Part shown: positions 21,926 through 42,428 of the stretch, piece by piece | Layout of the letters: each line of letters starts with the position of its first letter | Position numbering within the stretch: position 1 is the first letter of the stretch | NCBI GenBank assembly: GCA_036676985.1 | Contig: JAKFBU010000027.1 | Span: 32,001-96,000 of the forward strand | DNA length: 64,000 nt | Source: Candidatus Sericytochromatia bacterium | Lineage (GTDB): Bacteria; Cyanobacteriota; Sericytochromatia; S15B-MN24; UBA4093 | Direction: 5' to 3' | Notes under the pieces: generated by a model | Seen by the model: only the letters and a program-made list of their open reading frames with translations | Told to the model about the DNA's origin: nothing | Database searches by the model: none | Translations under genes and position numbers: made by a program

Positions 21926-22158
21926 CGACAGGTACGGGACGCCGCCTTCTGGTCGGCGTTCCGGGGCCTGGTGACTCCCTACCGAGCTCCTCATTCGACC
22001 AACCTACCGCAGCAACGGGCCGGCTCTCAGGAGCCGGCCCGTCGCGTGGCCGGGTATCCTGCTTGCTGCTCCGGACCGTGCCCGGTCTCGTGTTATAGAT
22101 CGACCGGCGATGGGGAACGCCGAGCGTATCGATCGCTCGCCAGCAAGTGAGGGGGCGC

Positions 22159-24918
22159 ATGATGCGGACCGGGGTCACGACGGACCAGCTCGAGGGATGC
22201 TTCGAGCGGGACTTCCGATTCCTGCTGGACACGTTTCGCGGGTTGCTCGAGGGCCTCGGGGAGCCCCTCGTCCGCTACCTCCCGTGGCAGGGGCGCCCGC
22301 CCGACGTGGCGGACGTGACCTGGCTCCAGGACGCCGAGCGACTCATGCAGCTGCATTCCATCTCTTTCTCGCTGCTCAACCAGGCCGAGGACAGCGCGTC
22401 CGTCGAGGCGCGGCGCCAGCGCGAGGCGGTGGAGGGCATCGGCCAGGAGCCGGGCCTGTGGGGGCATGCCCTGAAACGCATGCTAGCGGCCGGGCTCGAA
22501 CCGGCCCGGATCGCCGATGAGCTCGCCCTGCTCTGGGTCGAGCCCGTGCTCACGGCGCACCCGACCGAGGCCAAGCGGGCCACCATCCTCGAGCACTACC
22601 GGGATCTCCATGGCCTCTTGATGGAGCGCATCCATCCCATGACGCCGCTCGAGGATCGCGACAACCGGGACCGGACCGGGCGCGTGCTCGAACGCATCTG
22701 GCGCACGGGCGATATCTTCCTGGAGAAGCCCGACGTGGCCTCGGAACTGAGGAACGTCCTCTACTACCTGCGGGAGGTCTTCCCGTCGGCCGCGGCCGTC
22801 ACGCGCCGACGGCTGCGGGTCGCCTGGGAGGAGGCGGGGCTCGATCCGGCGACCCTGCACGTCATGCCGCTCCTGTCCTTCGGGGACTGGGTCGGGGGCG
22901 ATCGTGACGGCCACCCGCTCGTGACCGCCGAGGTCACGCAGGGGACCCTGCACGAGCTGCGCCTCAACGCCCTTGTCGGGATCAACCGGCAGCTCAACGA
23001 TCTCGCCGAGCACCTGAGCCTCTCGGCTCGCCTGCAGGAGCCCCCTCCCCCCCTGGTCGCACGGATCGAGACCCTCAAAGAGCAGCTTGGAGCCAGAGGC
23101 CTCCAGGCCATCGAGCGCAACCCGGAGGAGCCGTGGCGCCAGCTCCTGAACCTCATGATCGCGCGGCTGCCCGTGGACGTGGCGCGCCGCCATGCGCTCA
23201 AGCTCAACGAGTTCGAGGGATCCTACCGTTTTGCCGACGAGCTGATGCTGGATCTGCGTCTCTTGCAACAGTCGCTGTGCGTGGTGGGGGCGTCACACCT
23301 CGGCGAGGCCGAGGTCCAGGACACCCTCGACTGGCTGCGGGCGACGGGGTTCCATCTGGCCGCCCTGGACATCCGCCAGAACAGTCGGTTTCACGACAAG
23401 GCCGTCGCCCAGCTCCTCTTGGCGGCCGGGCTCGACGGCACGGGTTACGCCGAGTGGCCGGAGGAGCGCCGTCTTGAGTTCCTGAACGCGGAGCTCCGCT
23501 TCATGCGCCCGTTTGCCCTGTCTTCCCGCTCCATCGGTCCCGAGGCCGACGCGGTGCTCGGCACCTATCGCGTGCTGGCCGCCCATGCCGACCGCTACGG
23601 CCGCGAGGGTCTGGGGGCGCTCATCGTGAGCATGACGCGCGGCCTCTCGGATCTGCTGGCGGTCTACCTGCTCGCCCGAGAGACGGACCTCGTGACCTCC
23701 GGCCCGGATGGCCTGGCCTGCAAGCTGCCCATCGTACCGCTCTTCGAGACCGTCGACGACCTGGAGCGAAGCGCCGGCATCATGGCCGCCTTCCTCGCCC
23801 ATCCCATGACGCGCCGCAGCATGGCCTACCAGGTCGGGACGGTCGGGCAGGATCGCCCCATGCAGCAGGTGATGGTCGGCTACAGCGACAGCACCAAGGA
23901 CGGCGGCATCCTGGCGGGACAGTGGCATCTGTATCACGCCCAGGAGGCCCTGACGGAGGTGGGACGCCAGGCGTCGGTGGTCATTCGCTTCTTCCACGGG
24001 CGAGGGGGGACCATCAGCCGTGGGGCCGGCCCCACCTATCGCTTCTTCGACGCCCTTCCGCCGGGATCCGTGCAGGGAGCCATCCGCATGACCGAGCAGG
24101 GCGAGACCATCGCCCAGAAGTACGGCAACCTTTCCCAGGCCGCTTACAACCTGGAGCTCCTCATGGCCAGCGCCGCCGAGGTCTCCTTCCTCAAGGAGCG
24201 ACCCGCAGCCCTCGAGCCAGACGTCGCATCGGTCATGGAGCGGCTGGCCGTCCTGAGCCGGGAGGCCTACGAGGCCTTGATCCGCGACCCCGGCTTCATG
24301 ACGTTCTACTCGCAGGCCACGCCCATCGACGCCATCGAGGAGAACCGGATCGGCTCGCGGCCGTCCCGGCGCACCGGGCTCCGGACGCTAGCGGACCTGC
24401 GGGCCATTCCCTGGGTGTTCAGCTGGTCCCAGTCGCGCTTCCACCTGCCGGGCTGGTTCGGGGTCGGCACCGCCCTCGAAACCTTGAAGCGAACGGACCC
24501 GGGGGTGTTCGAGACCCTGCGCACCCGGGGCATGCAGTGGCCGTTCCTCGCCTATGTCCTCACCAACGTCGAGACGAGCGTCAACACGGCGGACCTGCAG
24601 GTCATGCGGCAGTACGCGGCCCTGGTGGCGGACGCGGCGGTCCGCGAGCGCCTCATGGGCGTCATGGAGGCCGAGTACGAGCGGTGCCGCCGTCTCCTCC
24701 AGGAGCTGTTCGAGACGCCGTTCGCCGAGCGCCGCCCCCTGCTCCACCGCTCGTTCGAGCTGCGCGCGGAGCCCCTGCGCTTCCTGCACCGCCTTCAGAT
24801 CGAGCTGTTGCGCGAGTGGCGCGCCTTCGACCGGAAGGGCCCGGCGGAGGATGCCGCGCTGCGGCGGGTCATGATGTCCCTCAACGCGATCGCGAGCGGC
24901 CTGCGCTCAACGGGCTAG
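22159..24918 (+). CDS. ppc: phosphoenolpyruvate carboxylase
   Basis: VLTAHPTE, GGDRDGHP, MVGYSDSTKDGG, FHGRGGTISRG, LRAIPWVFSWSQSR, C-terminal GLRSTG. Confidence 0.96.
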   Translation: MMRTGVTTDQLEGCFERDFRFLLDTFRGLLEGLGEPLVRYLPWQGRPPDVADVTWLQDAERLMQLHSISFSLLNQAEDSASVEARRQREAVEGIGQEPGLWGHALKRMLAAGLEPARIADELALLWVEPVLTAHPTEAKRATILEHYRDLHGLLMERIHPMTPLEDRDNRDRTGRVLERIWRTGDIFLEKPDVASELRNVLYYLREVFPSAAAVTRRRLRVAWEEAGLDPATLHVMPLLSFGDWVGGDRDGHPLVTAEVTQGTLHELRLNALVGINRQLNDLAEHLSLSARLQEPPPPLVARIETLKEQLGARGLQAIERNPEEPWRQLLNLMIARLPVDVARRHALKLNEFEGSYRFADELMLDLRLLQQSLCVVGASHLGEAEVQDTLDWLRATGFHLAALDIRQNSRFHDKAVAQLLLAAGLDGTGYAEWPEERRLEFLNAELRFMRPFALSSRSIGPEADAVLGTYRVLAAHADRYGREGLGALIVSMTRGLSDLLAVYLLARETDLVTSGPDGLACKLPIVPLFETVDDLERSAGIMAAFLAHPMTRRSMAYQVGTVGQDRPMQQVMVGYSDSTKDGGILAGQWHLYHAQEALTEVGRQASVVIRFFHGRGGTISRGAGPTYRFFDALPPGSVQGAIRMTEQGETIAQKYGNLSQAAYNLELLMASAAEVSFLKERPAALEPDVASVMERLAVLSREAYEALIRDPGFMTFYSQATPIDAIEENRIGSRPSRRTGLRTLADLRAIPWVFSWSQSRFHLPGWFGVGTALETLKRTDPGVFETLRTRGMQWPFLAYVLTNVETSVNTADLQVMRQYAALVADAAVRERLMGVMEAEYERCRRLLQELFETPFAERRPLLHRSFELRAEPLRFLHRLQIELLREWRAFDRKGPAEDAALRRVMMSLNAIASGLRSTG

Positions 24919-24997
24919 CTGGCTCGCTTGACCGCCGTTCGGAAACGTGGGCTAATGTGCCTGCTTTCCACGGCTGCGCTTGTTCAAGGAGGTGTCC

Positions 24998-25393
24998 ATG
25001 AGCTTTCACACCAACATTCTGCAGGCCGCCCGCGACAACGGGTACTTCCGCAAGGAGCTCCACACGACGGAGCGATCGCAGGTGGTCGTCATGAGCATCG
25101 AGCCGGGCGACGACATCGGCGCCGAGGTCCACGACCTCGACCAGGTGCTGGTCTTCGTCGCGGGCACCGGCGAGTTCCAGGTGGGCGACCAGAAGGGCAA
25201 GGTCTCTCCCGGTGACGTGGTCGTCGTCCCCGCCCATGCGGAGCACAACTTCGTCAACACGGGCCGGGAGCCCATGAAGCTCTTCACCGTCTACGCGCCT
25301 CCCGAGCACGCCCCGGGGACGATCCACCGGACCAAGGCCGAGGCGGAAGCGGCCGAGGCAGAAGAGCACGGCCGAGAGCACGCTCGTCACTAG
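24998..25393 (+). CDS. cupin domain protein
   Basis: IGAEVH...DQ, PGDVVVVPAHAEHNFVNTG, KLFTVYAPPEH; AGGAGG RBS. Confidence 0.88.
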   Translation: MSFHTNILQAARDNGYFRKELHTTERSQVVVMSIEPGDDIGAEVHDLDQVLVFVAGTGEFQVGDQKGKVSPGDVVVVPAHAEHNFVNTGREPMKLFTVYAPPEHAPGTIHRTKAEAEAAEAEEHGREHARH

Positions 25394-26448
25394 CGCGCGC
25401 GTTCGCCCGACGTCACTCCTGTAGCGCCCTGTCGTCCGGCAGGGCGTTCGGGGTTTCGCAGCCAGGCGATGGTGTCGCGGAGCGTCTCGTCGGCCGGGCG
25501 AGCCCGGAAGCCCAGGTCCGGCTCGGCATACAGGGATCGCAGCCCCCAGTGGCGCGCGCCCATCTCGAGGACGACCGGGTCCGGTAGCAGGTGCAGGGCC
25601 CGCTTGCCGAGTGTCTGGTTGAGCATCGCGAGCGCCCACACGAGCCCGCTCGGCGCGTACCAGCGCGGCAGGGGCACCTCCCCGAGCCTGGCGACCATGC
25701 CGAAGAAGTCCGCGAGCGTGCTCTGGCAGCCCGGCGTGTGGTACACGGGCCGCGGCTGCGGGATCTCGAGGGCCCTGACGAGAGCCGGAGCGAGGTCCCG
25801 GATGTCCACGAAGTGCATGCCACCCCTCAGCAGGAAGGGGACGCGGCGCCGGAGGACCCGCGTGACGTTGCTCGTCGAGCGGGCGCGGTGGTCCCGGGGG
25901 CCCAGCACGACCGGCGGCCGGATGATCACGAGCTCCACGCCGAGTTCCCCGGCCAGTTTTCGTGCGGCCGCTTCGGCCTGAATCTTGGAGTGGTAGTAGG
26001 GCCAGTCTTTAACTAGCTCCGTGCAGTAAGGCGCTTCCTCGTCCGCCCGGCTCTCCTGCTCCTTGAAACAGCCGACGGTGCCCGAGGTCGAGACGAACAC
26101 CAGCCGGCACCGGTAGCGGGCCGCGAGCCGCACCATGGCGAGCGTGCCCTCGACGTTGGTGCGGATCATGGCCTCCGGCGACCGGCGGCTGTGCTGGACG
26201 ACGGCCGCCAGGTGCAGGATGCCGCCGAGCCCGTCGAGCAGGGGATCCGTGCCCCACCCGGACGTCTCGAGCAGGCCCCCTTCGATCGCGGGCACGGGAC
26301 CCAGGTCCTGCTGCCAGGACGTCGCTTCCCAGGTCGCGCGATCGCGCACCAGGGCGACGGGCTTCCACGAGGGCTCGCCCTGGAGCGCCTCCAGCACGTG
26401 GCGGCCGAGAAAGCCGCTCGCCCCCGTGATCAGCAGCGGCCGGCTCAC
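25390..26448 (-). CDS. extended SDR (NAD-dependent epimerase/DFR-like); candidate alkyl/acyl-DHAP reductase
   Basis: TGASGFLG, HLAA, YYHSK, IRPPVVLGP, FVDIRD; GTG start overlaps the upstream stop (GTGA). Confidence 0.85.
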   Translation of the reverse strand: MSRPLLITGASGFLGRHVLEALQGEPSWKPVALVRDRATWEATSWQQDLGPVPAIEGGLLETSGWGTDPLLDGLGGILHLAAVVQHSRRSPEAMIRTNVEGTLAMVRLAARYRCRLVFVSTSGTVGCFKEQESRADEEAPYCTELVKDWPYYHSKIQAEAAARKLAGELGVELVIIRPPVVLGPRDHRARSTSNVTRVLRRRVPFLLRGGMHFVDIRDLAPALVRALEIPQPRPVYHTPGCQSTLADFFGMVARLGEVPLPRWYAPSGLVWALAMLNQTLGKRALHLLPDPVVLEMGARHWGLRSLYAEPDLGFRARPADETLRDTIAWLRNPERPAGRQGATGVTSGERAR

Positions 26449-29117
26449 CGGACCACCTCGGCCACGGCCGGCGTCGCGACCCACTGGATCTCCTCGCCCG
26501 GCCAGCGACAAGCGTCGGCATGGGCCGGGAGCGCCCGGGCCTCGGGGCCCCAGGTGTAGGCGCCGCCCTCGAGGACGAGGATCCCGCGCTGGACCATGTC
26601 GTCGAGGGCCGCCTCCACCTCGGGCCGGAAGGCCGTCGGAAGGGCTGCGAGCACGTCCCGCACCCCGCAGCGCAGGTCCCGGTCCAGGAAGGCCCCCAGG
26701 TAGCGGGCCACCTCCGCGTGGTCCCGGCACACCGGCTCGAACAGGGCGCGCAGGAGCGCCCCCGGCACGGGCTCCGCGCCGGGTACCCGCGCCGCGTAGC
26801 CGTTTCGAGCCACGTGGCTGCGGATCACGGGATGCTCGGATAGCTGGCGAACGGCATCCGCGTAGAAGGCATGCTCCCACTGCTGGCGCAGGCTGCGCTC
26901 CTGCAACGGATCGGCCGCCTCCTTGAGGGGCAGGACGCTGTCGAGCACCGGGACCCCGCGTGCTCGGAGCAGGCGGGCCAGGTCGCGGACCTGCAGCCCC
27001 GTCTCCGGGTGTGCGGAGAGGAACGCCCGCAGATGATACTCCGTCGCCACCGACGCCGCCTGCAGCTCGCCCATGACCGCCCGGCTCAGGTCCGGTACGT
27101 CCGTCTCGGGCCCGAGCGTGAGGGGCCGGCCGCAGGCTACGTGGACCCGGCCAAGCCGCACGTGGCCGCGCCACAGGTGACCGAGCCACTGGAGCACGGG
27201 GCCCAGGCGGTGGGTCGTGTCGGAGCCCCCGCGCAGCTCGCGCAGGAACGCCGCCTCCTCGGGGATGCGGTCATAGCTGATCATGACGGGCAGGATGCGA
27301 CAGGGCTGCTGGGTGCCTTGCAGGGCCCGCAGGAGGCCGCGCCGGGGTGCCAGGAACCGGCGCGAGCGGCTGCGCGTTCCCTCGATGAAGAAGGTCAGGG
27401 CCTGACGCCGCGTCACCAGCTCACCCACGCGGCGCGTGAGCTCCGGGTCCTCGCGGCCCAGGCCGCGCTTGATGTAGAAGGCCTGAGCCCAGCGCAGCAG
27501 CTCCCCGAGGAGGGGGATGCGGGCGAAGTCCTCGGTGGCCGCGATGTGCGGCAGCGGGAGCTTGAGGTCGGGCCAGGTGAAGAAGAGGTAGGGGCTGATG
27601 AGGAAATCCGCGTAGCTCCGGTGGCTGGGCACGACGACGAGCAGCTCGTCGGGACTTGCCCCCTCCATGGCGGCCTGGAAGGAGGCCTTGTCGACGGTGA
27701 CCAGGTCGGTGCCGCGCCGGAAGGCCTTGCGCAGGAGGAAGCCGAGCACCCGGTGCGTCGCGTTCCCGTTCGGCTGCCTCAGCGCCCAGAGGAGGTCGCC
27801 GCCCGAGGCCTGGTGCTGCTTGCCGCCCATCGACACCTGGTCTTCGCCGCGGCGCAAGAGGTGCCGGTGGATGCCGCGGGCGATCGTCTCGAAGTAGGCC
27901 ACGGTGTCGAAGGTCGGATCGTGCCGGGTATCCGACGATCGGAAGTCGAAGGTGCGGTGCGTGAAGTACCGGAAGCCCCGATTCAGGTAGAGCAGCCCGC
28001 CGAGCAGACGCTTCAGGGCCCGGGCCTGCTTCTTCTGGCCGAAGAGGGTGGCCGCGGCGAGGGCCGTGCCCCATTTCAAGCGGTGGTGAACGAACTCCAG
28101 CACGTGCAGCCGTGCGTTCGCGGGGCCCACGTGCACGAAGCCCGCCCGCGGCCCCACCGGAAAGCGATCGAAGTAGGGGACGTGGACGTCGCAGATCTGG
28201 CGGATGGTGAGCGCGCGCGCGAGGCCCGCCACCGCGTAGCGGATCCGCACCTCGTCGGTGCTCGGCGCGTCGAAGGCCGCGTCGAGCACGCGCTCGGCGA
28301 CCTCGTCGCACGGCACGATGTCGAGCCGGACGTCAGGATCGACGCCCAGCACCCGGAGGTAGCCCATGCCATACAGGGCCACGAAGCCCGCAAAAGCCGC
28401 CTTGCTGTCGATCCAGCCTGCGAACGGGAAGCGTCGGCACGCCGAGATGATGCTCGGCCGCACGATGGTCAGGGGCACGTGGCCGTGCCGGGCGACCAGG
28501 AGGTGCTCGGCGATGCACTTGGTGAGCGTGTAGGTATTCGCATGGCCCGAGGCTGCGAGCATGGCGGTCTGGCTCGCCGTCCCGTCGAGGATGCTCCGGT
28601 AGGCGTCCTCGGCCGACAGGGGCAGGGGGGCGAGTTCTTCACCGAAGGCGCGCGTGCCTCCCGGATGGGGAGAGACATAGGCGGTCGAGACATCGACCAT
28701 GGCCCGCAGCTGAACGCAGCCCTTGGCGAACTCCAGGACGTTCAGGGCGCCCGTGATGTTGGATTCCGCCGCCTCGGGCAGCGGCAGGTCGAAGTCCACC
28801 GAGGCCGCGCAGTGGATGACCCGGTGCACGTTCTTCTGGAGAAGCTCGCGATCGCCCCCCGAGAGGGCGAGATCCGCGGCCGTCAGGTCGCCCGCCACGG
28901 GCCGGCACCATGTGGACCAGTCCTCGGGCAAGAGCCGAAAGCACTCGGAGGACACGATCTCCTGCTCGAAGCGCTCTTCCGGCGTGCGGCCGCGCTTGGG
29001 GCGGATGAGGACGTAGACGGTCCCGAGGCCCAGCTCCTCGCGCCGGCGCATCAGCTCGGCGAGGACGACCTTGCCGACGAAGCCCGTGCAACCCGTGACG
29101 AACAGGGTTTCCCCCAT
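26445..29117 (-). CDS. bifunctional fatty acyl-CoA reductase / DHAP(G3P) acyltransferase (FARAT-like fusion, about 890 aa)
   Basis: FAR half: TGCTGFVGK, IHCAASVDF, VSTAY, NTYTLTK, IVRPSII, PFAGWID. Acyltransferase half: PSHRSYADF (HX4D), AFYIKR, FFIEGTRSR, PVMISYDR. Confidence 0.9.
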   Translation of the reverse strand: MGETLFVTGCTGFVGKVVLAELMRRREELGLGTVYVLIRPKRGRTPEERFEQEIVSSECFRLLPEDWSTWCRPVAGDLTAADLALSGGDRELLQKNVHRVIHCAASVDFDLPLPEAAESNITGALNVLEFAKGCVQLRAMVDVSTAYVSPHPGGTRAFGEELAPLPLSAEDAYRSILDGTASQTAMLAASGHANTYTLTKCIAEHLLVARHGHVPLTIVRPSIISACRRFPFAGWIDSKAAFAGFVALYGMGYLRVLGVDPDVRLDIVPCDEVAERVLDAAFDAPSTDEVRIRYAVAGLARALTIRQICDVHVPYFDRFPVGPRAGFVHVGPANARLHVLEFVHHRLKWGTALAAATLFGQKKQARALKRLLGGLLYLNRGFRYFTHRTFDFRSSDTRHDPTFDTVAYFETIARGIHRHLLRRGEDQVSMGGKQHQASGGDLLWALRQPNGNATHRVLGFLLRKAFRRGTDLVTVDKASFQAAMEGASPDELLVVVPSHRSYADFLISPYLFFTWPDLKLPLPHIAATEDFARIPLLGELLRWAQAFYIKRGLGREDPELTRRVGELVTRRQALTFFIEGTRSRSRRFLAPRRGLLRALQGTQQPCRILPVMISYDRIPEEAAFLRELRGGSDTTHRLGPVLQWLGHLWRGHVRLGRVHVACGRPLTLGPETDVPDLSRAVMGELQAASVATEYHLRAFLSAHPETGLQVRDLARLLRARGVPVLDSVLPLKEAADPLQERSLRQQWEHAFYADAVRQLSEHPVIRSHVARNGYAARVPGAEPVPGALLRALFEPVCRDHAEVARYLGAFLDRDLRCGVRDVLAALPTAFRPEVEAALDDMVQRGILVLEGGAYTWGPEARALPAHADACRWPGEEIQWVATPAVAEVVR

Positions 29118-29121
29118 GGTC

Positions 29122-30936
29122 CTACACCGTTTCCTTCCCGGCGGCATGGAGGTTTCCGGCGCCGAACACGTTCTGCGGATCGAGGGCTTCCTTGGCGGCC
29201 TGGACGCCGCGCAGGGCCGCGGGCGACATGATGCGCGGCAGGAACTCCTGCCGGAGCTTGCCGACTCCGTGGTGATGGGACAGCGAGCCGCCGTTCGCGA
29301 GGACCTCCTCGCGGGCCGCCACCTCGATCGCGTGGTAGGTGCCGCTCGGGTCCTCGACGCCCTGGTAGCCGTAGGCGAAGTAGAAGTAGACGGCCGCCCC
29401 CGTGTCGTAGACCTGGGTGACCCGGCACGAGATGAAGGGCTTGCCGGGCAGGTGGCGGGCCGCATGCTCCTTGGCGATGCGCTGCTTGACGTTGGCGCAG
29501 AGGCCGGCGACCCGGCTCCAGGGCACGGACGTCTCGAAGGACTCGGCGAGGAACCAGTGGTTCATGACGAAGTCCCGGATGTAGGCGATGCCGTAGGTCA
29601 GCTGGTAGCCTCGCTTGCCGTTGTCGGGGCCGGCCTTCATGCCGCCATGGCGCTTGGCGAGCTCGTAGACGAGCGCCTCCTGCTGGGCGACCTCGGTCCG
29701 GGAGCCTTCGAACACGAGCGTGCAGGCGACCATGCGGTCCGGCTCGAAGCCGAGGACCTTGGTGACGAGCACCTTCTCGAGCTTGCTCTTGAGGGCCTTG
29801 AAACCCTTCGAGACGGGCTTGAGGGCGATACCGAACTGGAACTGCAGGTTGTCGACCAGGCGGACGCTGGCAGGGGCCCGGCCCGTCTGGGCGAGGTCGT
29901 ACATGAAGCGGGTGCCAGCCTCGAAGTCCTTGAAGAGCACCGAGCCGAACTTCTGGACCTCGGGCAGCGGAAACAGCTTCACGACCGCCGAGGTGATGAT
30001 CCCGAGGTTGCCTTCCGAGCCGAACCACCAGCGTCGGGGATCCAGCCCCGTCGACTCGCGGGGCAGGGCCGCATGCCGCTCGATCTTGCCGAGGGACGTG
30101 ACGGCCGTGAGGTCGAGGACCAGGTCCTCGATGTTCCCGTAGCGGTTCTTCTTCATCCCGCTCGCATGGGTCGAGATCCAGCCCCCCAGGGTCGAGAACT
30201 CGACGGAGTCGGGCTCGTGGCCCATGGTGAACCCGTACTCGGCCAGCTGCTGCATGATCGTCCGGCCCACCGCGCCTGCCTGGATGCAGGCCATGCGGTT
30301 GATGGGATCGATCCACAGGATGCGGTTCATGCGGCGCGTGTCGAGCGAGACGATGACGCGTTGCTCGTCCGCCGGGCAGCGGAGCGCCTCGGTGACGTTG
30401 GTGCCGCCCCCGAAGGGGATGATCGAGGCGCCGTGACGCTTGGCAGCCTCCACGACGGCCACCACCTGGTCCTCGTCGGTCGGGTACACGACGACGTCCG
30501 GCACGCGCGGCAGCCTGCCGTGCTTGATGGCGAACATGTCCGCCTGCGTGTGACCGTGACCGTGACGCAGGCGCACCTTGGGCTCCTGGCTGATCTGGTC
30601 CTCCGACAGCGCGCTCCGCAACTCGGCGAGCAGCCCGGGCGCGGCCTTGGGCTCGGGAATGGCCGGGGGGTAATGGGGCTCATGCCGATCGTCCGGCTCG
30701 ACCGGGAGCCCCACGACGCCCCGGAACCAGGGCAGGAGGTTGGGAAGCTCGTGGCCGCTGAGATCGGGGTAGCGCTCGCCCGTCACCTCCACGTGCCCGC
30801 GGGCGTTGACGCGAAAGGCCGTGTCCCGGAAGCCCCAGACGTCCAGGCTCTCCTCGTCCCGAGGCTCGGCGGGCGGCGGCGGCGGGTAAAGACGCCCTTG
30901 GTGCGAGGCGTCGGCGAGGTTGGTGGTCGAGTTCAT
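29122..30936 (-). CDS. agps: alkyl-dihydroxyacetonephosphate synthase (FAD-linked)
   Basis: GHEPDSVEFSTLGGW, ASGMKKNRYGNIED, APASVRLVDNLQFQFG, AYIRD, ESFETS, CRVTQVYD, YFYFAY, GGSLSHHHGVGKLR. Confidence 0.93.
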   Translation of the reverse strand: MNSTTNLADASHQGRLYPPPPPAEPRDEESLDVWGFRDTAFRVNARGHVEVTGERYPDLSGHELPNLLPWFRGVVGLPVEPDDRHEPHYPPAIPEPKAAPGLLAELRSALSEDQISQEPKVRLRHGHGHTQADMFAIKHGRLPRVPDVVVYPTDEDQVVAVVEAAKRHGASIIPFGGGTNVTEALRCPADEQRVIVSLDTRRMNRILWIDPINRMACIQAGAVGRTIMQQLAEYGFTMGHEPDSVEFSTLGGWISTHASGMKKNRYGNIEDLVLDLTAVTSLGKIERHAALPRESTGLDPRRWWFGSEGNLGIITSAVVKLFPLPEVQKFGSVLFKDFEAGTRFMYDLAQTGRAPASVRLVDNLQFQFGIALKPVSKGFKALKSKLEKVLVTKVLGFEPDRMVACTLVFEGSRTEVAQQEALVYELAKRHGGMKAGPDNGKRGYQLTYGIAYIRDFVMNHWFLAESFETSVPWSRVAGLCANVKQRIAKEHAARHLPGKPFISCRVTQVYDTGAAVYFYFAYGYQGVEDPSGTYHAIEVAAREEVLANGGSLSHHHGVGKLRQEFLPRIMSPAALRGVQAAKEALDPQNVFGAGNLHAAGKETV

Positions 30937-31000
30937 GGAGGTCCTGTCATGGCGGCCGCGCCGTGCGACGAGGTGGGCCGTCGTCGGCGGCTACCGAGCA

Positions 31001-31080
31001 AATTCTTAACTATGCGATAGCGAATAGATTAGACATTGTTAATATATACTGGAGTCTAAAAGGTTGCACGTCAACTGTTG
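31001..31080. promoter_or_regulatory. AT-rich divergent promoter region of the ether-lipid cluster
   Basis: Sharp AT-rich patch; TATACT at 31045-31050; inverted repeat TTAGAC(31029)-N19-GTCTAA(31059). Confidence 0.45.
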
Positions 31081-31100
31081 GGAAGGCCGGAGCACAAGAC

Positions 31101-32051
31101 ATGACTCTCCTGGGGATGCGCAGCGAACTGACGTCGAACGTGCTCTGGACCTTCCTGGGCATCCTCGTGCTGCACGTCGCCGTCACGCTGTCACCGACCG
31201 TGATTCGCCTGTTCCGCCCGGGGGGGGACTTCCGGGACTTCCACCGGAGGGCGCTCGGATGGTGGGTCGTCTCGGGATCGCTCGTGCTGGCCCTTGCGCT
31301 CGGCCCCTACGCCGCGCTCTTCTTCTTCGCCGCCGTCGGCTTGACGGCTTACCGCGAGCTGCTGGCGATCCAGCCCTTCGCCTTCAAGCGGGCCACCGTC
31401 CTCGTCGTCGCCGGTCTTATCGCGGTGCCCTACCTGATGATTCTCGCCCGACTGCCCGAGGCGGCGTCTTCCGGCGCCGCGGTCTGGTGCCTGCTCGCCA
31501 TTCCCCTCGTCGTGATGCTGCTCGAGCCGGGGGAGGGCTTCGCCCGCAAGGCCGGCGCCCTGTTGATGGCCTGGCTCGTGGCCGGCTACTGTCTGAGCCA
31601 GGTGCCCGCGCTCATGTGGCGAGCCGAGCCCCTGAATCCGGCGGGCGGCGGGGTGGGGCTCGTCATCTACATGGTCTTCCTCGCCCAGTTCAACGACTTT
31701 GCCCAGTACGTCTGGGGCAAGGTGGCGGGTCGCACGCCGATCGTGCCGGCGCTCAGCCCCAAGAAGACCTGGGCCGGGTTCCTGGGGGGGCTCCTGTCCA
31801 CCGCGGGCCTGGCCTGGCTTCTGGCCCCGGTGCTGACGCCCGTGCCGCGCGAGGTGGCCCCGCTCATGGGCATCGTCGTGGCAGCTGCGGGCTTCCTCGG
31901 GGACATCACGGTCTCGGCGATCAAGCGGGACGCAGGGGTCAAGGACGCCGGCAAGCTCCTGCCCGGCTTCGGCGGGGTCATGGACCGCGTTGACAGCCTC
32001 GTCTACGTGGCTCCCGGCTTCGGCCTCCTGCTGCGCTGGGTGTGCCCATGA
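31101..32051 (+). CDS. phosphatidate cytidylyltransferase (CdsA/YnbB-like)
   Basis: NDFAQYVWGK, SPKKTWAGFLGG, GDITVSAIKRDAGVKDAGKLLPGFGGVMDRVDS. Confidence 0.92.
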   Translation: MTLLGMRSELTSNVLWTFLGILVLHVAVTLSPTVIRLFRPGGDFRDFHRRALGWWVVSGSLVLALALGPYAALFFFAAVGLTAYRELLAIQPFAFKRATVLVVAGLIAVPYLMILARLPEAASSGAAVWCLLAIPLVVMLLEPGEGFARKAGALLMAWLVAGYCLSQVPALMWRAEPLNPAGGGVGLVIYMVFLAQFNDFAQYVWGKVAGRTPIVPALSPKKTWAGFLGGLLSTAGLAWLLAPVLTPVPREVAPLMGIVVAAAGFLGDITVSAIKRDAGVKDAGKLLPGFGGVMDRVDSLVYVAPGFGLLLRWVCP

Positions 32052-32698
32052 GCCAGCCGATCGAGCACGGCCGCGCGGTCCCTCCCGCACCCGCCGGGGG
32101 ATGGTTTCCGGCCTTCGCGCACCTGACTCCGCCCAACCTCGTGACGTCCGCCTCGGTCGCCCTGGCCTTCGCGGGGATCCTGCTGGTCGCCTCCGGCCGC
32201 CCGGACCTCGCCCTCCTCTGCGGCATGGCCGCGGTGCCCTGCGACCTCCTGGACGGCTTCCTGGCGCGCCGGATGGGACTGCAGTCGCGCTTCGGGGCAG
32301 CTCTCGACTCGCTGGCCGATGCCCTCTCCTTCTGCCTCCTGCCCGCGGTCGCGGCGTTCGGGGTGGGCCTGACGGCCTGGTACCAGCTGCTGCCGCTCTT
32401 CGCCTACGTCCTCGCCGGGGTCTGGCGCCTCGCGCAGTTCGACGAGGCGGGCATGACCCAATGGCGCGGCCGCCCGGCTTTCCAGGGCATGCCCACCCCG
32501 TACGCGGCGAGCCTCGTGTACCTGCTCGCTGTTGTCGGGTTGCGGTTCCCCACCGAGCCCATGCGCCTCGGCCTCACGGCGGCCGTCCTCGTGCTGGCGA
32601 TCGCCATGGTCGCGCGCCTCCCCTTCCCGAAGGGGGGATGGCACTACCGGGTCATGTGGATCCTCTTGCCCCTGGGAGCCGTGTTCGCGTGTCGCTAG
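32048..32698 (+). CDS. CDP-alcohol phosphatidyltransferase (PssA/Pcs-like)
   Basis: PNLVT, DLLDGFLARRMGLQSRFGAALDSLAD signature, RLAQF, FQGMPTP; ATGA overlap. Confidence 0.9.
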   Translation: MSQPIEHGRAVPPAPAGGWFPAFAHLTPPNLVTSASVALAFAGILLVASGRPDLALLCGMAAVPCDLLDGFLARRMGLQSRFGAALDSLADALSFCLLPAVAAFGVGLTAWYQLLPLFAYVLAGVWRLAQFDEAGMTQWRGRPAFQGMPTPYAASLVYLLAVVGLRFPTEPMRLGLTAAVLVLAIAMVARLPFPKGGWHYRVMWILLPLGAVFACR

Positions 32699-33918
32699 CT
32701 GCCGCCTCCCGCCTCTGGGGCCTGAACGGGGGCGTCTTCGTCTTCTCGTTCCTGCTCTCGGGCCTGACCAACGTCATTCCGCAGTTCATCCTGCTCGCGC
32801 TCGTGCCCGACCAAAAGGCCTTCTGGCTACCTGTCAGTCTGCTCGCGGCCACGGCCTGCGCCGTCCTCGGGACGCTGCTCGGGGGGAGCTGGTGGGAACG
32901 CCGGCTCTCCGGTCGCTGGATCCTGGTTCCCCTGCTCGGGGCGGTCGCGAGCTTCCTGGGGCTGTTCACGGCTCGTGAGCCTTGGCACTTCGTCCTGCTC
33001 GCCGCGTTGGCGACCGGTCTCGGCAACTTGCTCGTCACCCGCCTCGACCACCTGGCTACCCGGACGGCGACCGATTCCCAGCGGAGCTTCAACGATCGTC
33101 TCGGCACCGCCTGTCGGTTGCTGGGGATGCTGCTCGCACCCTGGTTCTTCACCCACCAGCTCCAGCACGGGATGGCCGTGACGCTGGCGCTCGGGCTGGG
33201 TGCGGCCGGCGTCCTGGGCGCATGGCTGGCGTCATGGCGGTCGGCCGCTGGGGCGGCGACGGTCGCGCCCCTCGCGGAAGCGTCGCTGCCCCTGGACCGG
33301 CGGGACTACCTGCTCCTGGGCCATGCCGTCAGCGTGTTCGCCGCGCTCTATCTCTTCGCGGCCAACCTCTCCTACTTCCTGCAGGACGCGCTCGCGTTCG
33401 ACCGCGCGACCCCACGTGCGGGCGTGCTCATCGTGGCGGTCTTCATGTCGGCCCTCGGCTCGGTGGCCGTCGCGTCCCTCGCCGCCCGGCGCCGGACGGG
33501 CGCCGCGACCGATCCGGGCGCCCTCGCCTTTCTGCCCGCGCTGCCCCTCGCCGTGGCCTGGGTCGCGTACGAGGGCCGCCTCGCGGTGACCTACACGGGC
33601 ATGCTCGCCATCGCGAGCGCCCTCGGGTTCGGCTACGGGGCCTTCCTCTTGGGTCTCAGGGACTTCGTCTCGCGCTCGGCCGCCCGAGGGAAGACGGTGC
33701 TGCTCACGATCTACAACAACCTGGCCAACGCGAGCGCCCTCCTGGCCTTTGCCTGCCTGTTCCTGCTCGACGGGCTCGCTCCCGGCTCGGGCGAGGGCTA
33801 CTACCTCGCATGGATGCGGCTGCTGGCGGCGGTGGCCACCGCCGGGATTCCCGCTTTCCTCATCGCCCGGAAGCGACATGGTTCCGATCGCCTCGTTCCA
33901 GGAGAATCACGCGCATGA
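32689..33918 (+). CDS. polytopic membrane protein, MFS-like (about 409 aa)
   Basis: About 12 hydrophobic segments in two halves; GTG start overlaps the upstream gene and the stop overlaps the next ATG; family not recognised. Confidence 0.65.
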   Translation: MSLAAASRLWGLNGGVFVFSFLLSGLTNVIPQFILLALVPDQKAFWLPVSLLAATACAVLGTLLGGSWWERRLSGRWILVPLLGAVASFLGLFTAREPWHFVLLAALATGLGNLLVTRLDHLATRTATDSQRSFNDRLGTACRLLGMLLAPWFFTHQLQHGMAVTLALGLGAAGVLGAWLASWRSAAGAATVAPLAEASLPLDRRDYLLLGHAVSVFAALYLFAANLSYFLQDALAFDRATPRAGVLIVAVFMSALGSVAVASLAARRRTGAATDPGALAFLPALPLAVAWVAYEGRLAVTYTGMLAIASALGFGYGAFLLGLRDFVSRSAARGKTVLLTIYNNLANASALLAFACLFLLDGLAPGSGEGYYLAWMRLLAAVATAGIPAFLIARKRHGSDRLVPGESRA

Positions 33919-35015
33919 CCACGATGCCCCCCGCCGGCGGGCAGCTAGACGATCCGACGGCAATCGACACCCTCGACGCCAAGACGCCCGGGGCCTACCG
34001 GGTCCTCATGGTCTCCCTGCGGACGTTCGCAAAGGCGGACGACTGCATCGGGGCATGGCAGGTGGTCACGACCCTGATCCTCACTGGCGGGGTGTTCGCG
34101 GCGATCGCCCTCGTCCAACCCCTAGCTGCCAAGTGGCTGTTGTTCCTGCCCCTGTGCTTCCTGCTGGTGCGCCTCTTCGTGCTGCAGCACGATTGCGGGC
34201 ACCTGAGCCTGTTCTCGAACCGGCGGGTCAACGACGTCGTCGGCATGGTCCTGTCCTTCGTCACGGGCGTCGCCTACGAGGCGTGGCGCACGGAGCACAA
34301 CTGGCACCACAGCCATCAGGCCAAGCTCAGCCATCGGGGCGTCGACCGCATGAACAGCCCCATGATGGCCGACGAGGCGGTACAGAGCCCGGACCTCGCG
34401 CAACTGAGAGTGCGCAAGATCAGCGTCCTCAACGTCTTCGTGCTGGGGGCGCTCAGCCTGGCCGTCCAACGCAAGCACCACGGCGCCTTCTTTCCGTTCC
34501 GTCCGAAGTTCCGCTGGCCGGTCCCCAACCGGGCGGCCCTCATCGCCAGCGTCCGCGTGACGAACCTCGTGCACGGGGCCTTCCACCTCGGGCTCCTGGC
34601 GCTCGTGGGCCCCTGGCTCTGGCTCGGCTTGATCCTGCCCGCCTACTTCTGCGGCGCGGGGCTGGGCGCCCTGCTCTTCTGGGTGCAGCACAACTTCGAG
34701 CGGACCTACCACGCCGAGGAGGCGAGCTGGAGCTTCGTCGAGGCCGGGCTGCGCGGCGCGAGCTACCTCAGGCTGCCGGGGATCTGGGGCTGGATCACGG
34801 CGTCCATCGGGATCCACCACGTCCATCACCTGAACGTGCTCGTCCCCAACTACCGCCTGGAGGCGGCCCGGCGCGCGGTGCCGGAGATCGCCGCCATCGC
34901 GCCCTTGAGCCGCGCGGACGTGCGCAAGTGCTTCACGCACGTCTTCTGGGACGCTTCCGAGGATCGGATGGTCGACTACGGCGCGCTCCGCTTCAACGCC
35001 TCCGGGCAGCCCTGA
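33915..35015 (+). CDS. membrane fatty-acid/lipid desaturase
   Basis: His boxes HDCGH, HNWHH, HHVHH plus VQHNFE and VPNYRL; ATGA overlap and GGAG RBS. Confidence 0.9.
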   Translation: MTTMPPAGGQLDDPTAIDTLDAKTPGAYRVLMVSLRTFAKADDCIGAWQVVTTLILTGGVFAAIALVQPLAAKWLLFLPLCFLLVRLFVLQHDCGHLSLFSNRRVNDVVGMVLSFVTGVAYEAWRTEHNWHHSHQAKLSHRGVDRMNSPMMADEAVQSPDLAQLRVRKISVLNVFVLGALSLAVQRKHHGAFFPFRPKFRWPVPNRAALIASVRVTNLVHGAFHLGLLALVGPWLWLGLILPAYFCGAGLGALLFWVQHNFERTYHAEEASWSFVEAGLRGASYLRLPGIWGWITASIGIHHVHHLNVLVPNYRLEAARRAVPEIAAIAPLSRADVRKCFTHVFWDASEDRMVDYGALRFNASGQP

Positions 35016-35040
35016 GCCTCGGGCCCAGGGCAGGGAGCGC

Positions 35041-35253
35041 CTAGGACTGACCTTGCTGGCGGGCCCGCCGGACCGTGACGAGCTCGCCGCCGATGCCCCA
35101 GTTGTCCGTCGGCACCTCGCTGATGAGCACGTGCGTGGTCGCGGGGTTCTTGTCCAGGAGATCCTGCAACAGCCGCGTGACGCCCTCCACGAGCTGGGCC
35201 TTCTGGTCGGGCGTGACCCCGTCGTCGGTCAGGTAGATGTGCACCAGGGGCAT
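35041..35253 (-). CDS. 4-oxalocrotonate tautomerase family protein
   Basis: N-terminal Pro (MPLVHI), QKAQL, NWGIGG; 70 aa; AAGGAG RBS. Confidence 0.9.
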   Translation of the reverse strand: MPLVHIYLTDDGVTPDQKAQLVEGVTRLLQDLLDKNPATTHVLISEVPTDNWGIGGELVTVRRARQQGQS

Positions 35254-35351
35254 GGGGGCTCCTTTCCTCTCAAACCGGTAAGCGTGCTTGCCTAACGGTA
35301 CCCCCAGGCCGCCCCGCGGTCGAGTCGCATGCGGGGCCCGCTCGTGATACA

Positions 35352-35366
35352 CTTACGAATCGTAAG
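35352..35366. promoter_or_regulatory. palindromic operator CTTACG-N3-CGTAAG, candidate HxlR-family site
   Basis: Perfect palindrome between the divergent tautomerase and HxlR genes. Confidence 0.6.
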
Positions 35367-35408
35367 CTAATTACCAGATACGAGCGACCGGGTGTCGAGG
35401 AGCGAGCA

Positions 35409-42349: not shown

Positions 42350-42428
42350 GACGTACCTCATTGAAGGGGAGATTAAGAGTAGTTTAAGTCATGCGTCGCT
42401 TGATGGGAAGGGCGATCGCGCCCTCCGG

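What the first reader, a model, noticed from the sequence alone, without database searches (positions are those of the whole stretch)
25390..35015. Divergent seven-gene cluster encoding a eukaryote-type ether-phospholipid pathway
Seen: left operon AGPS, FAR-acyltransferase fusion, extended SDR (4-bp gap, then GTGA overlap); right operon CdsA, CDP-alcohol phosphatidyltransferase, MFS-like protein, desaturase (all overlapping); both share a 164-bp gap with an AT-rich core. Established: peroxisomal ether lipids are made by FAR + GNPAT + AGPS + alkyl-DHAP reductase; known bacterial routes include myxobacterial ElbD and AGPS homologs and the anaerobic PlsA/Ger enzymes. Inference: one locus covers fatty alcohol, acyl-DHAP, alkyl-DHAP, alkyl-G3P, CDP activation, head group, transport and desaturation. 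I know of no description of this full arrangement, especially outside Myxococcota.
Basis: partly seen in the sequence, partly recalled or inferred. Interest (0 to 1): 0.92.

Follow-up and report, generated by a model that had tools for sequence, protein, structure and literature searches.

The report
Ether-lipid operon beside head-group module
A soil and groundwater relative of cyanobacteria that lacks photosystem genes carries the known bacterial ether-lipid operon back to back with a second operon for lipid head-group attachment, transport and desaturation, a pairing that suggests, but does not prove, a self-contained route to ether phospholipids.

Summary
Seven genes lie at 25390-35015 in two divergent, translationally coupled operons, separated by a 164-bp gap with an AT-rich core.

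The left arm (AGPS, FAR-acyltransferase fusion "FARAT", extended SDR) has the same domain order as the published Myxococcus xanthus MXAN_1676-1675-1674 operon. It recurs in 11 class relatives and one unrelated genome, so it is not new.

The host is not a myxobacterium. It belongs to a class of Cyanobacteriota in which no photosystem reaction-centre gene was found. One class member is labelled Candidatus Sericytochromatia at NCBI.

The right arm holds:
- a YnbB-type CdsA paralog (the housekeeping cdsA lies elsewhere);
- a PssA-like CDP-alcohol phosphatidyltransferase;
- a divergent MFS transporter;
- a His-box membrane desaturase.

The full divergent layout recurs only in the sister species. 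A related FARAT/MFS/CdsA/desaturase neighbourhood occurs in one other family. In metagenomes, CdsA-like, desaturase, MFS and CDP-OH transferase genes recur together without AGPS nearby. An independent assembly bridges the junction.

That the right arm acts on ether-lipid intermediates is plausible but inferred. This genome has no CarF/PEDS1 homolog, although 14 of 47 class genomes do.

Verdict: a new variant of a known system, of moderate interest.

The parts
25390..26448 (-). Extended SDR (NAD-dependent epimerase/dehydratase type). Candidate acyl/alkyl-DHAP reductase and counterpart of MXAN_1674.
   Evidence: Pfam Epimerase 99 bits and NAD_binding_4 68 bits. HpnA-like 134 bits, below the 368 cut-off. 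GASGFLG at residue 9 and YYHSK at residue 151. The start GTG overlaps the FARAT stop as GTGA. It follows FARAT in 11 class relatives and in G047.
26445..29117 (-). FARAT: fatty acyl-CoA/ACP reductase domain fused to a GNPAT/PlsB-like acyltransferase domain.
   Evidence: NAD_binding_4 at residues 7-275, 199 bits; Acyltransferase at residues 490-614, 61.8 bits. PlsB models 91-100 bits, below cut-off. Motifs GCTGFVG (9), YTLTK (196), HRSYAD (499) and EGTRS (579). 637 homologs at E<=1e-20 among the 8000 candidates scored.
29122..30936 (-). Alkylglycerone-phosphate (alkyl-DHAP) synthase, AGPS.
   Evidence: FAD_binding_4 and FAD-oxidase_C. Residues 31-596 align to 93-657 of guinea-pig AGPS 4bby at E 2.7e-175, and to Dictyostelium 2uuu at E 1.4e-82. 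SHHHGVGKLR is conserved.
30937..31100 (.). Shared divergent intergenic region with an AT-rich core; presumed promoter/operator region.
   Evidence: 164 bp, 54% GC, with a 66-bp core of 36% GC. Core blocks AAATTCTTAA and AGATTAGA..TT.TTAAT.TATA are conserved in G001 while the flanks diverge. No sigma-70 consensus match and no inverted repeat.
31101..32051 (+). YnbB-type CdsA paralog (CDP-diglyceride synthase family).
   Evidence: CTP_transf_1 173.8 bits. 35% identity, E 5e-44, to E. coli K-12 YnbB, against 23% to the genome's housekeeping CdsA in the tsf-pyrH-frr-cdsA context. The signature SAIKRDAGVKDAGKLLPGFGGVMDRVD has F where canonical CdsA has H.
32048..32698 (+). CDP-alcohol phosphatidyltransferase, PssA / archaetidylserine-synthase-like.
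   Evidence: PF01066 56.7 bits. Best NCBIfam hits are archaetidylserine synthase (71.9 bits) and PssA (66.1 bits), both below cut-off. Full motif DGFLARRMGLQSRFGAALDSLAD. 38% identical to the genome's other PssA-like gene, which lies near Psd on contig C23.
32638..33918 (+). Divergent MFS transporter of a rare subfamily. The true start is probably a GTG near 32680-32686.
   Evidence: No Pfam hit for this protein itself; the G001 ortholog hits MFS_1 at E 2.3e-4. 126 representatives at E<=1e-3 among 1.84 billion proteins. 16 of 41 aligned members hit MFS_1. AF2 model pLDDT 88.3. Foldseek finds VMAT2, NorA, G6PT and MdfA at TMq about 0.7. Atlas score 0.98 to MFS clusters.
33915..35015 (+). Membrane-bound His-box fatty acid/lipid desaturase. 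Regiospecificity unknown.
   Evidence: PF00487 82.4 bits. Delta5 DesA model 162.5 bits, below the 500 cut-off. His boxes HDCGH (92), HNWHH (128) and HHVHH (301), invariant in 31 homologs. Orthologs in 3 of 47 class genomes, all beside a FARAT gene.

Best explanation
The locus is a real pair of divergent operons. The host belongs to a cyanobacterial class in which no photosystem reaction-centre gene was found (one class member is labelled Candidatus Sericytochromatia), and near-identical DNA occurs in soil and groundwater metagenome runs.

**Left operon.** This is the bacterial AGPS-FARAT-SDR ether-lipid operon, the counterpart of M. xanthus MXAN_1676-1674. The proposed steps, by homology:
1. 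The FAR domain reduces an acyl thioester to a fatty alcohol.
2. The acyltransferase domain makes 1-acyl-DHAP.
3. AGPS swaps the acyl group for the alcohol, giving 1-O-alkyl-DHAP.
4. The SDR probably reduces this to 1-O-alkyl-glycerol-3-phosphate (inferred).

**Right operon.** This is an accessory phospholipid module: a YnbB-type CdsA paralog, a PssA-like CDP-alcohol phosphatidyltransferase, a divergent MFS transporter and a His-box desaturase. In this genus it sits head to head with the ether operon across a conserved AT-rich regulatory gap.

My reading is that, after sn-2 acylation by an enzyme encoded elsewhere, the paralogous CdsA activates alkyl-acyl-glycerol-3-phosphate to the CDP form. 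The transferase then adds serine or a similar alcohol. Decarboxylation by the Psd encoded on another contig would follow. The desaturase then introduces a double bond into a chain of this lipid pool. All right-arm steps are inferred from family membership and neighbourhood.
For: **Gene families, motifs and coupling.**

**Left arm matches the published operon.** Same domain order as described in PMC9131029 and PMC13012113.
- The AGPS-FARAT-SDR order is found in 11 of 12 class relatives that carry full-length FARAT.
- The twelfth, G027, has AGPS-FARAT on a truncated contig.
- The order is also found in the unrelated genome G047.

**Right arm genes are extra copies.**
- G000 has 3 CdsA-family genes. 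One sits in the classical tsf-pyrH-frr-cdsA context.
- G000 has 3 CDP-OH transferases. One follows rimO.

**The two arms are linked beyond this genome.**
- G001 (same genus, 58-87% protein identity) keeps AGPS divergent to CdsA-CDPOH-MFS-Des, with the AT-rich core conserved.
- G027 (another family) has a FARAT gene, an MFS gene on the opposite strand, then CdsA and Des.
- Desaturase orthologs occur in only 3 of 47 class genomes, and all 3 lie next to FARAT.
- A metagenome locus has a stand-alone FAR divergent to the desaturase (L062).
- FARAT, CdsA and Des hits of 66-72% identity share one 'longest contig' length of 25306. This is only a hint of a third co-located case.

**The junction is real.** An independent contig bridges it.
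Against: **The right arm is usually not beside the left arm.**
- It is absent next to the left arm in the 9 other class genomes with at least 2.6 kb held upstream of AGPS, and in G047.
- G047 has no desaturase ortholog at all.
- The MFS-like gene was found in 2 of 41 relatives, both in this genus.

**The right-arm kind of module occurs without AGPS.** Of 9 metagenome loci recovered with the desaturase alignment:
- none has AGPS or a fused FARAT in the DNA held;
- 3 have a CdsA-like neighbour;
- 3 have an MFS neighbour;
- 1 has a CDP-OH transferase;
- 1 has a HAD gene.
The module therefore exists independently. Only 4 of these 9 loci have about 10 kb held on both sides.

**Other points.**
- The MFS genes beside these desaturases are not mutually similar by BLASTP.
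- The closest characterised relative of the CdsA is E. coli YnbB, which is linked to the glycolipid MPIase rather than to ether lipids (PMC6362211 passages).
- The CDP-OH transferase and the desaturase both score below the NCBIfam equivalog cut-offs.
- No lipid data exist for this organism.
Confidence: 0.5

Rival explanations
1. The two arms are functionally independent. The right arm is a general accessory phospholipid or glycolipid module (YnbB-type CdsA, CDP-alcohol transferase, MFS, desaturase) acting on ordinary diacyl lipids. Its position beside the ether operon in this genus is a lineage-specific accident of gene order or of co-transfer.
For: - CdsA-like-Des-MFS and Des-CDPOH-MFS sets occur in metagenome contigs of 50-68% GC with no AGPS or fused FARAT in the flanks held.
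- The left arm occurs without the right arm in 9 class genomes and in G047.
- The CdsA is 35% identical to E. coli YnbB.
- G000 holds another CdsA / desaturase-like / PssA-like / Psd cluster that has no ether genes.
Against: - All 3 class genomes with the desaturase ortholog have it within a few kb of a FARAT gene, in two different arrangements.
- One metagenome locus pairs the desaturase with a FAR gene.
- The divergent intergenic core is conserved between the two species of the genus.
Confidence: 0.3
2. The locus encodes a complete plasmalogen (vinyl-ether) pathway that does not use PEDS1. The PF00487-family desaturase would replace CarF/PEDS1 as the plasmanyl delta-1' desaturase.
For: - G000 (100% complete by marker genes) has no PF10520 gene. 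The same search finds one over cut-off in 14 of 47 class genomes, which validates the search.
- Among the 13 genomes with full-length FARAT: 5 have PF10520, 3 have this desaturase, 5 have neither, and 0 have both.
- The desaturase lies in the cluster.
Against: - The pattern rests on about three genera. Kin are not independent.
- No PF00487 enzyme is known to me to make vinyl ethers (recalled, not searched).
- Homologs at 43-53% identity occur in contigs with no ether-lipid genes in view.
- The best model match is an acyl-lipid Delta5 desaturase.
Confidence: 0.12
3. The left arm mainly makes fatty alcohols or neutral ether lipids (alkyl-diacylglycerols or wax-type storage lipids) rather than membrane phospholipids. 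In that case the CDP-dependent right arm would not be its downstream route.
For: - M. xanthus makes an alkyl-diacylglycerol ether lipid, TG-1. Disrupting MXAN_1676 there reduces ether lipids only slightly (PMC9131029 passages).
- FAR-only and acyltransferase-only split genes occur in relatives.
Against: - AGPS and an SDR are conserved with FARAT in every relative with enough flank. This fits the alkyl-DHAP to alkyl-G3P route.
- No wax synthase or DGAT was seen in the locus.
Confidence: 0.08

Closest known systems
Myxococcus xanthus MXAN_1676-MXAN_1675-MXAN_1674 operon (AGPS / FAR-GNPAT fusion 'FARAT' / NAD-dependent epimerase-dehydratase)
   Same: Same three gene products in the same order on one strand, tightly coupled. 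This matches the description in PMC9131029 and PMC13012113. AGPS is a close homolog of peroxisomal AGPS.
   Different: - The host is a non-myxobacterial lineage.
- The published descriptions I read mention no divergent CdsA / CDP-OH transferase / MFS / desaturase operon.
- G000 lacks the CarF/PEDS1 family that M. xanthus uses for the vinyl ether bond.
Peroxisomal ether-lipid pathway of eukaryotes (FAR1, GNPAT, AGPS, acyl/alkyl-DHAP reductase; FARAT in protists)
   Same: Homologous FAR, GNPAT-like and AGPS catalytic domains. The FAR-acyltransferase fusion is as in protist FARAT (PMC13012113 sections 11-12).
   Different: Here the head-group chemistry would run through a CDP-activated lipid (CdsA + CDP-alcohol transferase). 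Eukaryotes use dephosphorylation followed by a CDP-ethanolamine phosphotransferase (pathway as summarised in PMC7487321 passages). The reductase here is an extended SDR whose role is untested.
E. coli ynbA-ynbB (CDP-alcohol phosphatidyltransferase + CdsA paralog)
   Same: Both have a non-housekeeping CdsA paralog next to a CDP-alcohol transferase. The window's CdsA is 35% identical to YnbB over 288 residues and shares the NDxAQYxWGK block. YnbB is non-essential and did not complement a cdsA knockout (PMC6362211 passages).
   Different: - The window's transferase resembles PssA rather than YnbA (E 6e-6, motif region only).
- The gene order is reversed.
- There are no YnbC or YnbD homologs. An MFS and a desaturase follow instead.
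- PGHGG is changed to PGFGG.
CarF/PEDS1 (TMEM189) plasmanylethanolamine desaturase
   Same: Both are membrane His-rich, oxygen-dependent lipid desaturases encoded in organisms that carry AGPS and FARAT.
   Different: They belong to different families (PF00487 here, PF10520 for CarF). PF10520 was not found in G000, G001 or G027, but is present in 14 of 47 class genomes.
Myxobacterial ElbD (elbABCDE) and anaerobic PlsA/PlsR (Ger) ether-lipid routes
   Same: They yield the same class of product: bacterial alkyl or alkenyl glycerolipids.
   Different: No ElbD-type or PlsA-type enzyme is in the locus. I did not run a whole-genome search for them beyond the FARAT query.

Membership tests
Alkylglycerone-phosphate synthase (AGPS) | FAD_binding_4 plus FAD-oxidase_C domains, with full-length similarity to solved AGPS structures | tested here: met
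   4bby E 2.7e-175, query 31-596 against chain 93-657; 2uuu E 1.4e-82. The next best hits (glycolate oxidase) reach only 1e-30.
Alkylglycerone-phosphate synthase (AGPS) | Conserved HHH loop near the C-terminus (its role in catalysis is recalled from the structural literature) | tested here: met
   HHH at residue 554 within SHHHGVGKLR, identical to the guinea-pig enzyme in the alignment.
Alkylglycerone-phosphate synthase (AGPS) | Exchange of the acyl group of acyl-DHAP for a fatty alcohol | not testable with these tools
   Needs an enzyme assay.
FARAT (FAR + GNPAT-like acyltransferase fusion; MXAN_1675 type) | N-terminal NAD_binding_4 reductase and C-terminal glycerolipid acyltransferase in one polypeptide | tested here: met
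   residues 7-275 and 490-614 of one 890-residue ORF with no stop. Homologs of 880-950 residues share the same domains.
FARAT (FAR + GNPAT-like acyltransferase fusion; MXAN_1675 type) | Reductase motifs GxxGxxG and YxxxK; acyltransferase motifs HxxxxD and EGTRS (motif definitions recalled) | tested here: met
   GCTGFVG (9), YTLTK (196), HRSYAD (499), EGTRS (579).
FARAT (FAR + GNPAT-like acyltransferase fusion; MXAN_1675 type) | Operon context AGPS-FARAT-SDR | tested here: met
   The published operon description was read. Direct sequence identity to MXAN_1675 was not tested.
CDP-diglyceride synthase (CdsA) family, YnbB subgroup | PF01148 domain with the C-terminal SxxKRx4KDxGx3PGHGGxxDRxD signature | tested here: inconclusive
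   PF01148 173.8 bits. The signature is present but has F for H (PGFGG). The E. coli CdsA equivalog model scores 96 bits against a cut-off of 385.
CDP-diglyceride synthase (CdsA) family, YnbB subgroup | Closer to YnbB than to the housekeeping CdsA, with the housekeeping copy present elsewhere | tested here: met
   35% identity, E 5e-44, to E. coli YnbB, against 23% to the tsf-pyrH-frr-linked CdsA of G000.
Phosphatidylserine synthase, CDP-alcohol phosphatidyltransferase type (PssA) | PF01066 domain with DGx2ARx8Gx3Dx3D | tested here: met
   Motif at residue 69.
Phosphatidylserine synthase, CDP-alcohol phosphatidyltransferase type (PssA) | Score above the curated equivalog cut-off | tested here: not met
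   TIGR00473 scores 66.1 bits against a cut-off of 107. The archaetidylserine synthase model scores 71.9 against 200. The alcohol substrate is therefore not established.
Major facilitator superfamily | MFS sequence profile match | tested here: inconclusive
   The window protein has no Pfam hit even at E<=10. The G001 ortholog hits MFS_1 at E 2.3e-4. 16 of 41 family members hit MFS_1.
Major facilitator superfamily | Twelve-helix MFS fold | tested here: met
   AF2 pLDDT 88.3, pTM 0.88. 285 PDB matches at E<=0.001; the top hits are VMAT2, NorA, G6PT1 and MdfA at TMq 0.65-0.71.
Membrane fatty acid desaturase (PF00487) | Domain match and three His boxes | tested here: met
   82.4 bits. HDCGH, HNWHH and HHVHH, invariant in 31 homologs.
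Delta5 acyl-lipid desaturase DesA (NF052548) | Score above the equivalog cut-off | tested here: not met
   162.5 bits against a cut-off of 500. Regiospecificity is unknown.
CarF/PEDS1 plasmanylethanolamine desaturase (PF10520) | Presence of a PF10520 gene in the genome | tested here: not met
   0 matches in G000. The same search rings in 14 of 47 class genomes.

The most novel reading that the evidence does not exclude
The right arm is a dedicated ether-phospholipid finishing line. It would consist of:
- a YnbB-type CdsA with PGFGG that activates 1-O-alkyl-2-acyl-glycerol-3-phosphate;
- a PssA-like transferase that makes plasmanylserine;
- a PF00487-family desaturase that forms the vinyl ether bond in place of CarF/PEDS1, which is not found in this genome.

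If so, this lineage makes plasmalogens aerobically with a non-homologous desaturase.
Probability: 0.12. Interest if true: 0.85.

Novelty: new variant of a known kind. Interest (0 to 1): 0.5.

Why it matters
How bacteria that use the AGPS route finish their ether lipids is still open. The reviews I read say that steps beyond ElbD, AGPS and CarF in M. xanthus remain to be characterised (PMC9131029 passages).

This locus offers a compact, testable candidate set for three of those steps: CDP activation, head-group transfer and desaturation.

It also places the AGPS-FARAT-SDR operon in the non-photosynthetic sister lineages of cyanobacteria, and in some of them a CarF/PEDS1 homolog as well. That bears on the current proposal that eukaryotes acquired this pathway from myxobacteria (PMC13012113).

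If the right arm proves unrelated to ether lipids, the finding reduces to one more instance of a known operon.

Tried and rejected
**Assembly chimera: rejected.** An independent contig and the sister species show the same junction.

**Cyanobacterium in the strict sense (NCBI label 'Stenomitos sp.' on G001): rejected for G000.** No Photo_RC was found in G000 or in any of the 46 other class genomes. It was found in 118 of 301 genomes sampled from the phylum.

**Myxobacterial contig: rejected.**

**16S rRNA.** None in the assembly, so taxonomy rests on the tool's kinship, the NCBI labels of kin and photosystem-gene content.

**Promoters and operators.** No sigma-70 consensus match in 25000-35500 (0 found, 0.4 expected). 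No inverted repeat in the gap.

**Plasmids.** tblastn of the desaturase against plasmid records at E<=1e-40 gave no match.

**Expression.** No RNA holder was listed for the stretch, so there is no evidence either way.

**Habitat.** Only runs holding at least half of the sampled words were considered.

**Genome-level co-occurrence in another phylum.** The phylum of G047 (93 genomes) has no desaturase ortholog, so this was uninformative.

**MFS orthology.** The MFS genes of the different desaturase loci show no BLASTP similarity at 1e-3. The recurrence of 'an MFS' may be convergent or chance.

**Literature.** The following searches found no description of the seven-gene arrangement:
- 'Sericytochromatia' + 'ether lipid';
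- AGPS + FAR + 'gene cluster';
- CdsA + desaturase + CDP-alcohol transferase + 'gene cluster' (0 papers);
- 'AGPS' + 'bacterial phyla';
- 'cdsA' + desaturase + ether lipid + myxobacteria;
- 'FARAT' + AGPS + bacteria.

The library is partial.

Full report
**1. What is there**

The region 25390-35015 holds seven genes in two divergent operons. GC content is uniform (65-72%) across the window, so nothing marks the region as a compositional island.

On the minus strand:
- AGPS, 29122-30936.
- A FAR-acyltransferase fusion, 26445-29117.
- An extended SDR, 25390-26448.

On the plus strand:
- A CdsA-family gene, 31101-32051.
- A CDP-alcohol phosphatidyltransferase, 32048-32698.
- A twelve-helix membrane protein, 32638-33918.
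- A His-box desaturase, 33915-35015.

Family assignments come from Pfam and NCBIfam.

Neighbouring genes are unrelated: PEP carboxylase and a cupin on the left; a tautomerase, a pirin and a P450 on the right. These delimit the cluster.

**2. Is the assembly sound?**

Near-identical DNA is held by several soil and groundwater metagenome runs.
- A 3,087-bp contig from a run of a different study spans 28501-31587 with 7 differences. That covers the FARAT 5' end, AGPS, the gap and the CdsA 5' end.
- A 16.7-kb contig of another run spans the whole cluster with 13 differences. That run may be from the same campaign as the source.

No RNA run was listed, so expression is unknown.

**3. Host**

The genome (4.68 Mb, 79 contigs, 100% complete, 5.09% contamination) has no 16S gene and no photosystem reaction-centre gene.

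Its class has 47 species genomes in the collection.
- None of the 46 others has Photo_RC.
- 118 of 301 genomes sampled across the phylum do. Nearly all of those lie in the remaining families, and they carry several copies each.

This fits a non-photosynthetic class of Cyanobacteriota.
- Three proteins of the class member G027 are labelled 'Candidatus Sericytochromatia bacterium' at NCBI.
- The sister species G001 carries the cyanobacterial name 'Stenomitos sp.'. That looks like a labelling artefact.
- The assignment to Sericytochromatia is therefore an inference from kin labels and gene content.

The contig is not myxobacterial.

**4. Left arm**

AGPS aligns over its full length with guinea-pig peroxisomal alkyl-DHAP synthase (E 2.7e-175), including the HHH loop.

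The fusion protein carries the reductase motifs (GCTGFVG, YTLTK) and the acyltransferase motifs (HRSYAD, EGTRS).

The order AGPS, FAR-acyltransferase fusion, NAD-dependent epimerase is exactly the M. xanthus operon MXAN_1676-1675-1674 as described in print (PMC9131029 passages; PMC13012113 outline and sections 11-12). In that work the fusion is called FARAT.

Distribution among relatives:
- Full-length FARAT occurs in 13 of 41 class relatives searched, counting G000.
- 11 of the 12 others show AGPS-FARAT-SDR. G027 shows AGPS-FARAT on a contig that ends there, plus a second FARAT copy.
- The same triad is in an unrelated genome, G047.
- 637 homologs at E<=1e-20 were found among the candidates scored. 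The few that carry NCBI labels include Deltaproteobacteria, Myxococcota, Gemmatimonadaceae and Marinimicrobia.

Published surveys already report AGPS, FAR and GNPAT homologs in several phyla. The left arm is therefore known. Only its host is somewhat unusual.

A quick maximum-likelihood tree of 31 FARAT sequences puts the class's copies in at least four separate groups. The tree used 12 of the class copies, 18 chosen database hits and G047; no rows were dropped after selection. The window's copy groups with G001, three unnamed metagenome proteins and the two G027 copies (SH-aLRT 92). The operon's history in this class is thus not simply vertical. The tree is unrooted, so I infer no donor.

**5. 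Right arm**

*CdsA paralog.* This is not the housekeeping enzyme. G000 has three CdsA-family genes, one of them in the classical tsf-pyrH-frr-cdsA context.
- The window's copy is 35% identical to E. coli YnbB (E 5e-44). It is 23% identical to the genome's own housekeeping CdsA.
- It reads PGFGG where canonical enzymes, the genome's other two copies and the five labelled database homologs I fetched (four proteobacterial, one planctomycete) read PGHGG.
- In E. coli, YnbB is non-essential, did not complement a cdsA knockout, and is tied to the glycolipid MPIase (PMC6362211 passages).

*CDP-alcohol transferase.* It has the full CDP-alcohol motif.
- Its best matches are phosphatidylserine and archaetidylserine synthases, but below the curated cut-offs.
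- It is 38% identical to a second PssA-like gene of G000 that lies near a phosphatidylserine decarboxylase on another contig.

*Membrane protein.* It is an MFS by fold (pLDDT 88; TMq about 0.7 to VMAT2, NorA, G6PT and MdfA).
- By family evidence, 16 of 41 aligned members hit MFS_1.
- It belongs to a rare subfamily: 126 representatives among 1.84 billion proteins.
- Its substrate cannot be read from these data.

*Desaturase.* It has the three His boxes. Its best model is a Delta5 acyl-lipid desaturase, far below cut-off.

**6. Are the arms linked?**

For a link:
- The sister species G001 has the AGPS 5' end divergent to CdsA-CDPOH-MFS-Des on one contig. Protein identities are 58-87%, and the AT-rich core blocks are conserved.
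- Desaturase orthologs occur in only 3 of 47 class genomes: G000, G001 and G027.
- In G027 the order is FARAT copy, an MFS_1 gene on the opposite strand, CdsA, desaturase.
- One metagenome locus has a stand-alone FAR divergent to the desaturase.
- Hits of 66-72% identity to FARAT, the desaturase and CdsA all report a longest contig of 25,306 bp. This is only a hint, because the tool that could confirm it was switched off.

Against a link:
- The 9 other class genomes with at least 2.6 kb held upstream of AGPS, and G047, have no right-arm gene there.
- G047 has no desaturase ortholog at all.
- The nine metagenome loci found with the desaturase alignment show no AGPS or fused FARAT in the DNA held. 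They do show the same kind of company:
  - CdsA-Des-MFS twice;
  - Des-CDPOH-MFS once;
  - CdsA divergent to Des once;
  - HAD-Des once.

The right arm is therefore one instance of a recurrent accessory module. This lineage has joined it to the ether operon.

**7. Mechanism**

Shown by homology: fatty alcohol formation, DHAP acylation and the acyl-for-alkyl exchange.

Inferred:
- Reduction of alkyl-DHAP by the SDR.
- sn-2 acylation by an enzyme encoded elsewhere.
- CDP activation by the YnbB-type CdsA.
- Serine-type head-group transfer.
- Decarboxylation by the distant Psd.
- Desaturation.
- Some transport or flipping role for the MFS.

I put about 0.85-0.9 on the left-arm reading and about 0.45 on the right arm acting on its products. 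That gives roughly 0.5 for the whole statement.

**8. The desaturase question**

PF10520, the CarF/PEDS1 family, is not found in G000. The same search is positive in 14 of 47 class genomes. These include five genomes (four of them of one genus) that also carry AGPS-FARAT-SDR.

Among the 13 FARAT-bearing genomes, 5 have PF10520, 3 have the cluster's PF00487 desaturase, 5 have neither and none has both. This is compatible with the desaturase standing in for CarF. It rests on about three genera, however, and homologs occur where no ether genes are in view. I give that reading 0.12.

**9. Verdict**

- The left arm is already known.
- I found the seven-gene arrangement in no paper in the searches listed. 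Supplements are closed.
- It is best filed as a new variant of a known system.

Noticed in passing
Class relatives of G000, e.g. G029:C171:6327-6821, G033:C63:45784-46272, G040:C213:15814-16323 (L064): CarF/PEDS1/FAD4-type genes (PF10520, 104-169 bits) occur in 14 of 47 genomes of this class, in which no photosystem reaction-centre gene was found. Five of them (G029, G033, G034, G035, G038) also carry AGPS-FARAT-SDR, i.e. the full aerobic plasmalogen gene set outside Myxococcota.
   Followed up: partly
Same genome, other contig: G000:C23 about 21000-32100 (L052:4282-15109): A second lipid cluster on one strand. In order: PPDK-like protein, soluble-type desaturase-like protein, CdsA paralog, FA_desaturase/hydroxylase-like protein, PssA-like transferase, phosphatidylserine decarboxylase, UbiA-type prenyltransferase (PRK13592-like), HMG-CoA reductase. 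Its product is unknown.
   Followed up: partly
G005:C77:67646-68926, G008:C47:39494-40774; G028, G031, G032, G039 and others: Split forms of FARAT occur in relatives. There are FAR-only genes (about 50% identity to residues 5-432) and acyltransferase-only genes (40-44% identity to residues about 418-860). Two of the latter carry an in-frame stop.
   Followed up: no
L017 (G027:C468) and L030 (G027:C287): G027 carries two FARAT copies that are 69% identical. One lies with AGPS, the other with MFS/CdsA/desaturase. The genome has 9% contamination, so the two may come from two organisms.
   Followed up: partly
L055:9213-9890 and protein P0129: In other bacteria a HAD-family hydrolase gene precedes the desaturase, and one 635-residue protein fuses HAD and desaturase domains.
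   Followed up: no
window 5553-10259 (-): A single-polypeptide pyruvate:ferredoxin oxidoreductase (1800 bits) lies next to a ferredoxin-NADP reductase. The reductase's best model is the cyanobacterial PetH type (383 bits, below cut-off), in a genome with no photosystem reaction-centre genes.
   Followed up: no
window 41141-42388 (-) and 42429-45320 (-): A subtilisin-like protease that scores best to the type VII secretion mycosin model (238 bits, below the 279 cut-off) lies beside a RapA-type SNF2 helicase.
   Followed up: no
L003/L016 (record DATNQJ010000017.1): The sister-species MAG is named 'Stenomitos sp.' at NCBI, a filamentous cyanobacterial genus. No Photo_RC gene was found in it or in any of its class. 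The name looks wrong.
   Followed up: partly
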